A stretch of 64,000 bases of DNA, from contig OZ024750.1 of NCBI GenBank assembly GCA_964016885.1, positions 23,374,001 through 23,438,000 of the forward strand, in the 5' to 3' direction. The translations under genes were made by a program, and so were the position numbers. The notes below the pieces were generated by a model. That model was not told the origin of the DNA, did no database searches, and saw only the letters and a list, made by a program, of their open reading frames with translations. Shown here piece by piece: positions 22,861 to 56,587 of this stretch. This DNA is from Eledone cirrhosa (lineage: Eukaryota). Each line of letters starts with the position of its first letter. Position 1 is the stretch's first letter.

Positions 22861-22950
22861 TCACCACCAGCCCACTCTCAAGGGCGTGAAACTAATAAAC
22901 CTTTGTTCGTACTGCCTCTCTGTTTTGTTCCCGTTCAATTTTTTACTATA
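22861..22950 (+). mobile_element. ~85-bp 3'-end stub of a Penelope-like pLTR, flanked by (TA)n
   Basis: CCCACTCTCAAGRGCGTGAAACTAATAAACCTTTGTTCGTACTGCCTCTCTGTTTTGTTCCCGT. It recurs at 28919-28993, three times in 49824-50046, and at 54553-54637, where it follows a hammerhead motif. Confidence 0.7.
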
Positions 22951-23665
22951 TATATATATACGTGTGTGTATATATATATATATATATATATATACACACA
23001 CACACATATATATATATATATATATATATATATATACATGGTATTTATATTAGTACTATGCGCTGATCGGTCTTTTCTTTCGTTTGACCCACACCTATAT
23101 ATATGTATTTATATATATATATATATATATATATATATATATATATATATATATATATATATATATATATATATATATATATATTATATATATAAAGACA
23201 AACATATATACATTATATATTTAGACATATTTTGAGAAAATCTGATGGTTGCTACAGCTGTCTTCATTCTTTGTCACAGCCAGTAATTGTTCTTCAGATT
23301 TCCAGTGTAATTCCACTATAATTTCGACAATGACTGCATGGCAATCCAGAACATAAACCTATAGTGTCTTAGCCATTATCGTGATGAAAATGGTTTAGAG
23401 CACCAGTGTATTTACAGTATTTACTTAAAATCTCTTTGAAGGCGAGTTGCTTTGTGGTTAGAGTAGTTGGCTAAGGATCATTAGGCCATCAGATCGATTC
23501 CCGGCGCTGCGATGTGTCCTTAAGTAAGACACATTATTTCACATTGCTGCAGTTTTCTCAGCTGGCAATGTGTCGTACATCTGATTCAAATGATCAACCT
23601 TATCAGTCAGTGTATCACGTTGAACAGTGATTATTTTAACATGCAGTTGATCCTTGCTTGTGTAA

Positions 23666-23843
23666 TTCTAAATCTAATTTCATGAAGTTTTAAATCTAAT
23701 TTTGTGCAGTTCTAAATCTAATTTTATGAAGTTCTAAATCTAATTTTCTGCAGTTTAAAATCTAATTTTATGACGTTCTAAATTTAATTTCGTGAAGTTC
23801 TAAATCTAATTTTGTGAAGTTTTTTTTATTTTAAATCTAATTT
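23666..23843 (+). repeat. 22-bp minisatellite (TTCTAAATCTAATTTTGTGAAG)
   Basis: About 7-8 tandem units. Confidence 0.92.
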
Positions 23844-23864
23844 AGTGGCACTAATCTCTATGCA

Positions 23865-52368: not shown

Positions 52369-52575
52369 TAAGGCGGGTAAAATTCCCGAGATCCATGGAC
52401 GAGTTCTCTCCAGCGGTCTCTGTCCCTCATTATAGCTGCCATAACCTGCATCTCCAACAGACCAGTGTCTGTCCTTAGGGCATCAACATATGTTAACCTT
52501 GGTCTTCCCCTTCTAGTGTGTCCATGTAGGGGCTCCCATCCTCAGCATTCTCGTGTCCAAGTCTCAGACCCATAC
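52369..52575 (-). mobile_element. second, internally deleted copy of the RTE 3' end
   Basis: Near-identical reverse complement of 38289-38458, preceded by ETWT- and RMLRM-encoding pieces. It is flanked by TA repeats. Confidence 0.9.
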
Positions 52576-54513
52576 ATATATATATATAAGCAACTAACTT
52601 CCACCATCTGTTTAGAAGGAATCACTCACAGAGAATTCCTTACGAGATGCTCAAGATAAAATTATAAAACCATTTTAAAATACTGTTAAAATGTGATAAG
52701 GAACACAGGAAAGGACAGAATGAAGAGTGGGAACGGGAGAGTAGGAAGATAGGATATAGACAAGGTGAAGTTTCTGCAGAAACAGCTGGATATATACGTG
52801 TGTATATATATATATATATATATATATATATATATATATATATATATATATAATTGAATAAACAAGAGAGATGAACACTAATATAAACATACATGTGTTC
52901 GAATCGCAAGGAAAAAATTTGCTAGGGTGAAAAAATACTAACTACAAGTTAGTATTTTTTCACCCTAGCAAATTTTTTCAGCCTAGCAAGTTTGGTCCTT
53001 ACGATTCGAACACATGTATGTTTATATTAGTGTTCACCTCTCTTGTTTATTCAATTATATTGTACGTCTCGGAAAAGCTTTTTTCTTAGAGCTATTTAAT
53101 TGTAAGAGACTACCCTGATTTCTTAACTCTCTCTCTCTCTCTCTCTCTCTCTCTCTCTCTCTCTCTCTCTCTCTCTCTCTCTCTATATATATATATATAT
53201 ATATATATATATATATATATATATATATATATTAGTGAAGGCGTGTGGTTGAGTGGTTAGAGAATTGGATTCGCAATCGTAAGGTTGTGAGTTCGATTCC
53301 TGGACCAGGTGATGCGTTATGTCCTTGAGCAAGACACTTTATTTCACGTTGCTCCTTCTACCTGGAGTTGCGACCGATAGATAGTATTAGCAATTGGAAA
53401 GACCAACGGAAACATTGTTCCCTCGGTCCGATTTGACGAAAGTCGATCGTTCCTAAAAAAAAAAATATATATATACAGTGTACCCCCGGCATTCGCTGTT
53501 CCGGTTATTTGCGGAATTTTCCTTAGAACCTGACGCGCGTTTCGCTATTGATCAGCTCAAGGTTCGATCTGTATATACGTACACAACACCGAAAAGTTTG
53601 TTTGTGTTCTGTCTTGCCTTCTATTTGAATTTTATATACAACTGTTTCGTCAGCAGAGTGTTGTGTCCTTGACCCTATCCAGAAACTGATGGGTGGGGTA
53701 AGCTACAAGTAAGGTGGAGTTTCCACAAAGAAGAGAAAACTAGCTGCATTTTCATTGTTTATTGTTTAGTCAAAGAGGGTAGAGCTGCACCCTTGATTCT
53801 TTTCAGGGCCTCTAAAACTGGTGGGAGGGAAGGAACGAGGATGATATCCTCAACCTAGAGACCTAACCTGATTGGACTCTGCTAAAGGCACACAAGAACC
53901 AGGTTGTGGTGTTTAAAGAATGAGCGAGAATGATAGAGAGGAAGTGTGAAAGGGATATAGAGGAAGAACCCCCCAGTACTTGACTGGTACCTTTTTATCG
54001 CCCTAGAAAGTATAGAATATTAATACTAATAATGTATTTGATCTCTCTCTCTCTATATATATATAAAGGAACGATCGACTTTCGTCAAATCGGACCGAGG
54101 GAACAATGTTTCCGTTGGTCTTTCCAATTGCTAATACTATCTATCGGTCGCAACTCCAGGTAGAAGGAGCAACGTGAAATAAAGTGTCTTGCTCAAGGAC
54201 ATAACGCATCGCCTGGTCCAGGAATCGAACTCACAACCTTACGATTGCGAATCCAATTCTCTAACCACTCAGCCACACGCCTTCTCTCTCTCCCTCTCTC
54301 TCTCTAGAGAGAGAGAGAGATTATATCACACTCTGCTCTGTAAGAACATAGAGTGCTCAACCGGCCTACCGCATATGGAAGCATCATAGCTACCATCAGA
54401 CAAACATATATATTTAATTTCATTTGTACCGTTTCCTCTCACCCCCCTTTTTTCTATATGTCTCTCCACCACTCCCCTACACACCCTTGGAACTCTCTTC
54501 CCACACACTTTTC

Positions 54514-54545
54514 ACCTGAAGAAGGGCTTATGCCCGAAACGTCGT
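54514..54545 (+). ncRNA. minimal hammerhead ribozyme motif
   Basis: AC-CTGAAGA-A-GGGC-TTAT-GCCC-GAA-ACGT-C-GT, with a GUC cleavage triplet at 54541-54543. It is followed by the 85-bp stub, AATAAA and (TA)n. Confidence 0.72.
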
Positions 54546-56587
54546 TCCCCACCATCACCCCACTCTCAAGAGCGTGAAACTAATAAACCTTTGTTCGTAC
54601 TGCCTCTCTGTTTTGTTCCCGTTCAATTTTTTACTATATATATATATATATACAGTAGAATAATCGAGTATCGAAAAATCGGCGCACGAGTTCACGATAA
54701 ACAAAATTCGAAAATGAGCGGCAGAGGGCTCAATAATTCAGATAAATCAGAGCTATAACTATCGTTAAAATACCGTCACACATAGAACAAGTCTATAATC
54801 AACCGTACGACCGAAAAATTGCGATCTGGAAGATTCGGGACACTCAGAAAAAATATCAATAAATCAAAAAATCAAATGAATATATATATATATATCTGTC
54901 GGTCTGTCTAAAGAAACATATCTGTCTGTCTGTCTCTGTGTGTGTGTGTGTGTGTGTGTGTGTGTGTGTGTGTGTGTGTGTGTGTGTGTGTGTGTGTGTG
55001 TGTGTGTGTGTGTGTGTGTGTGTGTGTGTGTGTGTGTGTGTGTGTGTGCGTGTGTGTGTGCGTGTGCGTGCGCGTGTGCGTGCGTGTGTGTGTGCGTGTG
55101 TGTGTGCGTGTGTGTGCTGATCAACTGACAGATCGCTATTGAAAGGTTTCTCTTTATAAGTTATTGAAGTAATCATAGTGTTCAAAGAAACTCTTACATT
55201 AAACATGTTAGTACCGACTGCTGTTTATTACAGCCTTCGTTTGAAACTATTAACATGTAAGTATGTATGTGCGTTCGGGTATCTAGTCCGACTATTTCTA
55301 TGTCCCACCGCATATATATACACATGCACACATGCATCTACATATATACATATACATACATATACATACATATATACACGTGCATACATGTATATACATA
55401 CTTACACATTTTTGGATAGCCGTTGACTCTTATGAGTTCTTCCGCCCTTTGTTAAACCACTGGGAGTGAGGACCCCTAGCCTTTGTCAGGGCATTCTTCT
55501 AGGAGAATGCAACTCAGGAAACTGGGAGAACTCCGATATAAAACCTGCGGCTCAGTAGTTACCGATGATGTTGATCTTTTCTTCTTTTCGGGTTATAGCT
55601 ACTGTCGCTCAGAGAGTGGGATTGGCTCAGTGCACAGTCTTTCCTCACTTAAAAAAAAAATCTTCACGCACAGGCATTGCACGATGACATGAATGAATAA
55701 TTACTAGCACACTGGATTAATAATGGTATATCATGCAATGGCCATACTCGATAACGAGGGGGCAGCCATCATGTATGTATGTATGCATGCATGCGTGTAA
55801 GTATGCATGTACGTATGTATGTGTGTGTGCAGAGCCCTACATGAATTACTAATACTAATTATGTGTGTATGGTCTATCGGTTTGTGTTGAGAACCGTACT
55901 GATGTATATATGGAAAGGTTTTATTCAAAGAAACCGTATACGTTGGAAATACAAATGAAAGGAGAAAGAATAAATAGAATAACAACTTTTCTAAGATAAC
56001 ATATGTTCCTGGTAATCTTCCCAATATCTTTATTTCATCTCGAAAGACGTTATAGGAAACGTACTTTGTTCGGAACAATGGCGGCAGCAAACTCTCTGAA
56101 GATAGACGTATCACATGACAAGCTGGTTAGAAGCTGGGGGAGTTTCTGCAAATGGATTAATTTCTTATGAGAATGTGATGATTGACCGAAAATATTGTAA
56201 ACTAATATTTCAACATAGATTTCTTTTTCAAAAAAATGTTTCGAGTTAGTAGTAAAATCTAGACGTTTATCTCCACCTGAATGCACCTAATGTAGATATT
56301 AGATAAATAGTGTAGTCGCCGGTAACACAGGAGTATTATTGGGCTTGATTAGACTAATAAAACACAGAGAGAGGGAGAGTGGGGAGGTTTAGCTACGAAC
56401 GATGTGGAAGTTACAACCAAATGTTTCCCAAGCTGTTGATGTATTTGTAGATTATATGTAGTTAATAAAGTCTGTGTAGTTGAATACTAAAACGCCATAT
56501 TCTGCAGTATTTACTTTACTAACAAACTTTGCTGCGATATTGTCTCAATTACTATTTCAGCAAGTAATCGCCATTTGTAACTGCATA

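What the first reader, a model, noticed from the sequence alone, without database searches (positions are those of the whole stretch)
22861..54637. An ~85-bp stub beginning near a predicted ribozyme cut site is pasted repeatedly onto (TA)n
Seen: six copies of one sequence (22861, 28919, 49824 partial, 49872, 49962, 54553), all on + and all ending at the same point in TA repeats. Three start at ..TATCACCAC, directly after TA dinucleotides. The copy at 54514-54637 shows this start lies within ~10 nt of the GUC cleavage triplet (54541-54543). Inference: the stubs are reverse-transcribed copies of the hammerhead 3' cleavage product, i.e. a ribozyme-delimited mini-retroelement primed from (TA)n. 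I do not know of a description of this family.
Basis: partly seen in the sequence, partly recalled or inferred. Interest (0 to 1): 0.8.

Follow-up and report, generated by a model that had tools for sequence, protein, structure and literature searches.

The report
Retrotransposon copies stop at ribozyme cut
These short repeats are the tail ends of a Penelope-type jumping gene that inserts into TA repeats, and over a third of its copies begin at or just after the spot where its built-in self-cutting RNA motif is predicted to cut, which is likely a trace left in the genome of that cut happening in the living animal.

Summary
The six copies are real (four insertion sites). They are not an independent mini-element. 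They are the last 94 nt or less of a 4.5-4.8-kb Neptune-type Penelope-like element (RT plus GIY-YIG, minimal hammerhead, (TA)n target), with 1,937 exact 3' anchors in the genome. Stubs share identical sequences with long copies.

Among 211 copies sampled by their 3' end, 68 begin within 27 nt downstream of the predicted cut and 0 within 27 nt upstream. A free change-point scan puts the step at the scissile bond (±1 nt). About 37% of copies are in excess there. Targeted searches show a roughly 5-10-fold step over a low background, not an absolute floor. A sister subfamily has a spike of 12 ends exactly at the cut.

C-richness, RNA folding and TA microhomology do not explain it. Against: three other hammerhead-bearing families in this genome (GUU, GUA, AUA triplets) show no step, helix I here is only 2 bp, and no RNA data were available, so a transcription start at that place is not excluded.

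The parts
22862..22949 (+). Stub: element 3' end from +6 after the predicted cut, between (TA)n runs
28919..28995 (+). Stub from +18, between (TA)n runs
49825..49869 (+). Partial stub from +50, first unit of a tandem locus
49874..49958 (+). Stub from +9, second unit of the tandem locus
49963..50047 (+). Stub from +9, third unit of the tandem locus, followed by (TA)n
54410..54637 (+). Longer 5'-truncated copy (from about -134) of the element's 3' pseudo-LTR, containing the hammerhead
54514..54545 (+). Minimal type I hammerhead: core 54516-54543, helix II 54524-27 with 54532-35, palindromic minimal helix III, helix I of only 2 bp (54514-15 with 54544-45); predicted cut between 54543 and 54544
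54544..54637 (+). 94-nt segment downstream of the predicted cut: the longest possible stub

Best explanation
The stubs are the last 94 nt or less of a Neptune-type Penelope-like retrotransposon, and they are likely copied from element RNA that its own hammerhead ribozyme has already cut. Steps: (1, shown) the full unit is pLTR, 5'UTR, RT-linker-GIY-YIG ORF, long 3'UTR, pLTR, about 4.5-4.8 kb, and copies sit in (TA)n. (2, inferred) the endonuclease nicks (TA)n and the freed TATA end primes reverse transcription at the UAUA that lies at the pLTR-body junction, which would explain the fixed 3' end. (3, shown) about 37% of copies are in excess within 54 nt downstream of the predicted cut, and the rate of 5' ends falls at that bond. 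(4, inferred) on cut RNA the RT runs off the new 5' end after at most 94 nt, sometimes adding untemplated bases; 0-15 nt are usually lost when the end is joined to the target. Uncut or re-joined RNA gives the longer, ordinarily truncated copies. (5, shown by shared sequences) stubs are made again and again from the parent family; (inferred) having no ribozyme core or ORF, they are dead ends. With a 2-bp helix I the cut probably needs dimer formation and the element's protein (inferred from published work on related motifs).
For: Parent element: pLTR-ORF-pLTR units in L264, L266, L269; RVT_1 E=5e-5 and GIY-YIG E=0.007, both under Pfam's cut-offs; 300 homologues, best E=3e-177, nearly all of the 120 listed carrying RT-type domain accessions. 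Step: 68 ends in 0..+26 against 0 in -27..-1 among 211 copies (p=2e-15); best change point 0, with +1 and -1 within 3.3 units of 2dLL; clean-sequence subfamilies alone 41 against 0. Genome-wide junction listing: 35 ends in 0..+3 against 7 in -1..-7 of 42 (by eye; p=5e-10). Sister subfamily F1b: 71 in 0..+18 against 13 in -1..-16 of 84, with 12 exactly at 0 against 5 in -1..-3 (by eye; p=1e-4); base 0 is G, which has no microhomology to TA, and several junctions carry extra bases. C-rich positions upstream end 0.11% per nt against 2.7% downstream; C-poor positions 0.14% against 0.76%. F1b's 0..+18 stretch is predicted unpaired. Family 2 with a similar helix II is smooth (12 against 13), so neither the method nor the hairpin makes the step. 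GUC cuts faster than GUA and AUA in a viroid hammerhead (PMC1636495, passages). R2's ribozyme cut is known to set its 5' junctions (PMC3774820, abstract).
Against: Three other hammerhead-bearing families show no step: family 2 (GUU, 129 copies), family 5 (GUA, 7-bp helix I, 79 copies), family 8 (AUA, 23 ends over 16 positions against 28 over 20). All three have longer predicted helix I than this family's 2 bp, and older relatives keep only about 1 bp. The hammerhead fold is not the predicted minimum-energy fold. The floor is not absolute: 14 ends lay in -1..-27 in the first 100 rows, and there is a small shoulder at -1/-2 (1, 4, about 5-6 against about 9 at 0). In the subfamily with poly-C at the cut, many long copies lack the triplet or the helix I pair (base -2 missing or changed in 15 of 115 long copies), yet that subfamily also steps (26 against 0). 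For the anole PLE, cleavage was not needed for insertion in vitro and no RNA reads began at the cut (PMC11167929). F1, F1b and the older relatives are homologous, so they are not independent replicates.
Confidence: 0.62

Rival explanations
1. The RNA 5' end is a transcription start inside the upstream pLTR that falls at or near the predicted cut. RT initiating internally at the pLTR-body junction runs off the capped end and gives strong-stop-like stubs; the ribozyme plays no part.
For: Penelope has an internal promoter with a defined start in its pLTR (PMC2377424, passages). RT initiates internally at the pLTR-ORF junction in vitro (PMC11167929). This would explain why only this lineage steps and why a weak helix I does not matter. 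L541 holds units that start at 0 and run 200 nt into the 5'UTR. An extra G precedes base 0 in 3 of 12 F1b junctions.
Against: The start would have to fall within 1 nt of the scissile bond by chance, in a 90-nt scan. In D. virilis the start lies about 120 nt upstream of the hammerhead (my sum of the 46-nt leader and 75-nt intron in PMC2377424 with the intron end at helix I in PMC4209133). No extra G was seen at the 6 position-0 junctions, and two of the three F1b cases may be related copies.
Confidence: 0.2
2. RT stops at a roadblock at the 3' edge of the conserved motif (a bound protein or a protein-stabilised fold) on intact RNA; no cut is involved.
For: The rate of ends rises toward 0 and peaks at +5..+9, with a shoulder at -1/-2. 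One predicted helix in F1 closes at +4.
Against: That helix is absent from the F1b folds, where the spike at 0 is sharpest. Families with the same or stronger hairpins do not stop there. The excess extends to +40 in C-poor, unstructured sequence. Helix II stalling would give ends at -8..-1, where they are rare.
Confidence: 0.12
3. The stub is an independent non-autonomous mini-element with its own master copies.
For: Nearest neighbours of stubs are stubs slightly more often than by shuffle (0.39 against 0.30, p=0.037). A few tandem stubs exist (window 49825-50047, L270, L541).
Against: No allele is enriched in stubs at 7 common variable sites; the largest identical-sequence groups mix long copies and stubs (15 and 10, 7 and 8, 8 and 2). 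Stubs occur in all main 3' subfamilies. Their starts are spread over 0..+53, not fixed. Two tandems examined (L270, L663) look like DNA-level duplications that include the (TA)n flank.
Confidence: 0.03
4. Ordinary smooth 5' truncation, shaped by TA microhomology or by C-rich sequence.
For: Microhomology does shape the fine pattern: ends cluster at +7 (A) and at -13 (TAT).
Against: The strongest TA-like sites upstream draw only a few ends each; the spike is at a G; C-rich tracts upstream end 25-fold less often; family 2 shows what smooth looks like.
Confidence: 0.03

Closest known systems
Neptune-type (C-terminal EN+) Penelope-like elements with minimal hammerheads (Cervera & de la Pena 2014, PMC4209133; Craig et al. 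2021, PMC8557442)
   Same: RT then CX2-5CxxC linker then GIY-YIG; DKG motif; partial tandems forming pLTRs; heavy 5' truncation; optional tail of about 40 nt; (TA)n target; minimal type I hammerhead in the pLTR with a palindromic helix III.
   Different: Here the 5' ends of copies step at the predicted cut. In the parts I read, those papers report no such footprint, and the 2014 paper states that in vivo evidence for cleavage was lacking. Helix I is 2 bp against the usual 4-5 (2 bp is reported for D. virilis).
Poseidon element of Anolis (PAc; Frangieh et al. 2024, PMC11167929)
   Same: Internal RT initiation at the pLTR-body junction, two start sites giving a tail, hammerhead in the pLTR that needs protein help.
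   Different: For PAc uncut RNA was the main template in vitro and no RNA reads ended at the cut; its start site has no homology to the target. Here about 37% of copies look like products of a shorter RNA, and the start site carries a TATA match to the target.
R2 retrotransposons with a 5' HDV-like ribozyme (Eickbush et al. 2013, PMC3774820)
   Same: A ribozyme cut sets the 5' limit of the cDNA; junctions are variable, with microhomology and untemplated bases.
   Different: In R2 the cut defines the full-length element; here it lies 94 nt from the priming site and yields dead-end stubs. Different ribozyme class and element class.
Non-LTR retrozymes of animals (Cervera & de la Pena 2020, PMC7229834; Li et al. 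2026 preprint 10.64898/2026.07.22.740005)
   Same: Short, non-coding, related to PLE pLTRs, tied to type I hammerheads.
   Different: Retrozymes are tandem units that each keep a whole hammerhead and are thought to move through circular RNA. These stubs lack the core, are mostly single, and form no lineage of their own.

Membership tests
EN+ Penelope-like element | Single ORF with RT followed by a C-terminal GIY-YIG endonuclease | tested here: met
   L264 ORF piece: RVT_1 at 36-156, GIY-YIG at 393-470 (below Pfam cut-offs); homologues to E=3e-177. All copies seen are broken by frameshifts or stops.
EN+ Penelope-like element | Partial tandem arrangement forming pseudo-LTRs | tested here: met
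   pLTR at both ends, 4.5-4.8 kb apart, in L264, L266, L269; upstream pLTR of variable length.
EN+ Penelope-like element | Optional 30-40-nt tail beyond the 3' end | tested here: met
   A tail of about 40 nt into the 5'UTR and then (TA)n in L030/L059, one locus fetched twice; 7 of 214 copies continue past the usual 3' end.
EN+ Penelope-like element | Hammerhead motif in the pLTR | tested here: met
   Core, helix II and palindromic helix III present and kept across diverged relatives; helix I only 2 bp.
Neptune clade | CX2-5CxxC linker between RT and EN, and DKG motif | tested here: met
   C-x4-C-x2-C before the GIY-YIG in L264; DKG in L269; features as given in PMC8557442.
Neptune clade | Placement with Neptune in an RT tree | not tested
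   No labelled Neptune, Nematis or Hydra reference proteins were at hand; the linker alone does not separate Neptune from Nematis.
Active hammerhead ribozyme | Self-cleavage at the GUC bond | not testable with these tools
   Only indirect genomic evidence; no RNA holder listed.
Non-LTR retrozyme | Tandem units each holding a complete hammerhead | tested here: not met
   Stubs start downstream of the core; the tandem stubs lack it.
Independent non-autonomous element (SINE/MITE-like) | Own lineage with a fixed 5' end and diagnostic changes | tested here: not met
   Starts spread over 0..+53; no stub-enriched allele; identical sequences shared with long copies.

The most novel reading that the evidence does not exclude
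The genome holds a direct, nucleotide-resolution record that a metazoan minimal hammerhead with a 2-bp helix I cuts its Penelope-like RNA in the germ line, and that this cut diverts over a third of insertions into 94-nt dead-end stubs. The ribozyme would then act as a built-in brake or switch on retrotransposition, and 5'-breakpoint plots would become a genome-only assay of which of the thousands of minimal hammerhead families are active in vivo.
Probability: 0.5. Interest if true: 0.75.

Novelty: new variant of a known kind. Interest (0 to 1): 0.6.

Why it matters
Whether the minimal hammerheads in animal Penelope-like elements cut in vivo is open: the 2014 paper had no in vivo evidence and saw weak cleavage in vitro, and the 2024 paper found cleavage unnecessary in vitro and no RNA ends at the cut. 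A step in 5' ends at the scissile bond, in about 37% of copies of a family with roughly 2,000 young copies, is evidence of a kind I did not find in print (searches; open-access library only). It makes the question testable from assemblies alone and names one RNA end to assay. It also gives a simple source for many tiny PLE fragments in microsatellites. The element type itself is known.

Tried and rejected
Rfam scan: no hammerhead among the 150 of 194 rows shown. RNA runs: no RNA holder listed; contigs of four runs of unrecorded kind were laid but list no places where molecules begin; neither bears on expression. Presence/absence between individuals was not tested. The apparent empty zone at -1..-27 in the random sample did not hold up: targeted searches found ends there at low density. 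Three attempts at an independent positive replicate (families 2, 5, 8) were negative. A search for an unrelated GUC family returned only relatives of this family and scattered GUC variants of family 2 in the 30 loci read, of 436 matches. G-quadruplex or C-tract stalling: rejected. A longer helix I through pairing with a motif 50 nt upstream: not kept in F1b. A spliced-in helix I strand as in D. virilis: no AG precedes helix I in the sequence. A suspected second 291-nt tandem was a DNA duplication with its flank. The Terminon paper (PMC5850863) is not held. Supplements of PMC11167929: 3 text files searched without hits; its figure S2, which plots genomic ends of PAc copies, could not be seen and may bear on novelty. 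Supplements of the other papers were not read.
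Full report
Observation. Numbering from the first base after the GUC triplet (window 54544 = 0), they start at +6, +18, +50, +9, +9 and about -134, and all end at +93, followed by (TA)n. Three are one tandem locus. The copy holding the hammerhead is longer than stated: 29 other genomic copies matched over the whole 131-nt query, and most continue upstream with it to about 54410. Strand is random genome-wide (945 against 992 exact anchors). 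The genome (G000) is a 3.0-Gb assembly; its repeat content looks octopus-like to me, which is recall and was not tested.

The parent element. Upstream of long copies lie a C/A-rich 3'UTR of about 1.2 kb and an ORF with RT and GIY-YIG motifs. Eleven stretches were fetched around tandem or tailed copies; L264, L266 and L269 show pLTR-5'UTR-ORF-3'UTR-pLTR units of 4.5-4.8 kb, with a DKG motif and a C-x4-C-x2-C linker. Pfam gives RVT_1 (E=5e-5) and GIY-YIG (E=0.007), both under cut-off; the N-terminal piece had no match. A homology search gave 300 relatives, best E=3e-177. These are the features given for Neptune-type elements in Craig et al. 2021 (passages); no tree was made. All ORFs seen are broken. 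In tandems the pLTR end runs on into the 5'UTR through a TATA, which matches the target; priming there is inferred.

The breakpoint test. Copies were sampled by a 26-nt anchor near the 3' end, which does not depend on 5' length beyond +54: the first 90 of 1,937 matches, 30 of 36 matches to a one-base variant, and subsets chosen by downstream flank letters (30 loci each, 40 more). This gave 214 distinct copies; 3 tandem repeats were dropped, leaving 211. Natural copies served as references. 87 of 211 begin in 0..+53; 68 begin in 0..+26 and 0 in -27..-1 (p=2e-15). A change-point scan from -60 to +30 picks 0, then +1 and -1. The rate of ends is 1.9% per nt in 0..+13 and 0.1-0.16% upstream. Subtracting background leaves about 79 of 211 (37%) in excess. 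Known mis-calls: L202 is at 0, not +14; L044 is long, not -66; positions in the poly-C subfamily are approximate, but the clean subfamilies alone give 41 against 0. The sample favours young copies and includes one window locus.

Finer resolution, read by eye from pattern listings. (first 100 of 244 rows, about 32 places): 11-16 ends at 0/+1 and 14 over -1..-27, so the floor is a step, not a wall. (all 48 rows; 3 long copies with indels and 3 internal-junction rows set aside): 18 at +2/+3, 11 at +1, 6 at 0 (two could be -2 with CpG decay), 7 over -1..-7; 30 of the 48 were re-read with flanks. One search, sister subfamily F1b (first 100 of 202 rows; 12 long or indel copies and 4 duplicates set aside): 71 in 0..+18, 13 in -1..-16, with 12 at exactly 0, 1 at -1, 3 at -2, 1 at -3; several have extra bases before the first G., older relatives (first 100 of 179 rows): most starts again lie downstream; about 9 at 0, but about 5-6 at -1/-2 and 3 further up, so the edge is softer there.

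Controls and rivals. C-rich positions upstream of the cut end at 0.11% per nt against 2.7% downstream, and C-poor positions at 0.14% against 0.76%, so composition is not the cause. F1 can form a helix closing at +4, but two F1b folds leave 0..+18 unpaired. Family 2 (window 12540; 7,188 anchors; 129 copies) has a similar helix II and truncates smoothly through its hammerhead (12 against 13; Fisher p=2e-9 against F1), which clears the method and hairpin stalling. Stubs are not a lineage: no stub-enriched allele among 55 stubs and 124 long copies, and identical sequences are shared, with only a slight neighbour excess (p=0.037).

Results against the ribozyme reading. Families 2 (GUU), 5 (GUA; 79 copies) and 8 (AUA; 51 of 61 rows) show no step, although their helix I is longer. 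The triplet order fits published rates for GUC, GUA and AUA (PMC1636495, passages; it has nothing on GUU; that GUU is poor is my recall), but helix I runs the other way. F1 has 2 bp, its older relatives about 1. The poly-C subfamily steps although many of its long copies lack the triplet; these may be survivors that escaped cutting, which I could not test. No RNA data were available. A transcription start at the same base would give the same pattern through internal initiation; L541, a 295-nt tandem whose units run from 0 into the 5'UTR, fits either reading.

Comparison with print. Cervera & de la Pena 2014 (parts 1-2 of 4 read) describe these minimal hammerheads, note the lack of in vivo evidence, and propose cutting and circle formation. 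Frangieh et al. 2024 (parts 1-2 of 4, the main text) show internal initiation, protein-assisted cleavage, no need for it in vitro and no RNA reads at the cut. Eickbush et al. 2013 (abstract and one section) give the R2 precedent. Li et al. 2026 (parts 1 and 3 of 5) and Cervera & de la Pena 2020 (passages) cover retrozymes. Schostak et al. 2008 (passages) map the Penelope promoter. PMC12602865 and PMC13282606 (passages) added nothing on this point. Seven library searches showed no report of PLE 5' ends piling up at the hammerhead cut; subscription journals, Repbase notes and figures were not visible. Five look-ups of earlier scan notes found none on this pattern or this genome.

Verdict. A known kind of element with an apparently unreported property. 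The step is shown; that the ribozyme makes it is likely (0.62), a promoter at the same place is the main rival (0.2). Interest 0.6.

Noticed in passing
window 12540-12655 (+): 3' end of a second hammerhead-bearing (TA)n-associated family (family 2, GUU triplet, 4-bp helix I), 7,188 exact anchors genome-wide; truncates smoothly; scattered copies carry GUC.
   Followed up: partly
window 49577-49822: Perfect fold-back of a family-5-type element end with a hammerhead-like motif, directly upstream of the tandem stubs. Family 5 copies often have inverted junctions at -60..-110, and 32 of 79 run to about -180 or beyond into microsatellite, which suggests a shared 5' end.
   Followed up: partly
L541 (G000:C12:8973221-8973553 region, minus strand): Head-to-tail array, period 295, whose units join about 200 nt of 5'UTR to position 0 of the stub; retrozyme-like layout without a ribozyme core.
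   Followed up: partly
L263 and L268 (about 1024-1499 and 970-1444 as oriented), also L232: Deletion derivative: stub from +33, about 270 nt of 5'UTR, then a jump to -52 of the pLTR; three near-identical copies on C4, probably from segmental duplication.
   Followed up: partly
long copies of the poly-C subfamily: Sequence at the predicted cut is hypervariable (poly-C of varying length, triplet lost or repeated) while flanks are conserved; slippage or scars of RT jumping across the cut are both possible.
   Followed up: no
family 1 copies with T at +36: This subfamily has few stubs (4 of 36 against 51 of 143; p=0.004 uncorrected), so the stub share differs between subfamilies.
   Followed up: no
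window 29457 (+), 44217 (+), 47007 (-), 44490 (-), 38604 (-): Further hammerhead-like motifs of other repeat families, several next to (TA)n; one 64-kb window holds at least six such families.
   Followed up: no
window 53234-53478 and 54043-54287: 245-nt inverted repeat pair, 94% complementary, 564 nt apart, just upstream of the hammerhead-bearing copy; looks tRNA-SINE-like (recalled, not tested).
   Followed up: no
window 59795-59942 and 60185-60264: Palindromes made of two element ends facing each other across a (TA)n run; they cause false miRNA matches in Rfam.
   Followed up: no
window 30308-35497: 5-kb satellite with a 51-nt ACC-rich unit, about 94 copies.
   Followed up: no
L530: A stub starting at 0 to +3 is joined head-to-head to an inverted end of another hammerhead-bearing family, close to that family's own predicted cut.
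   Followed up: no
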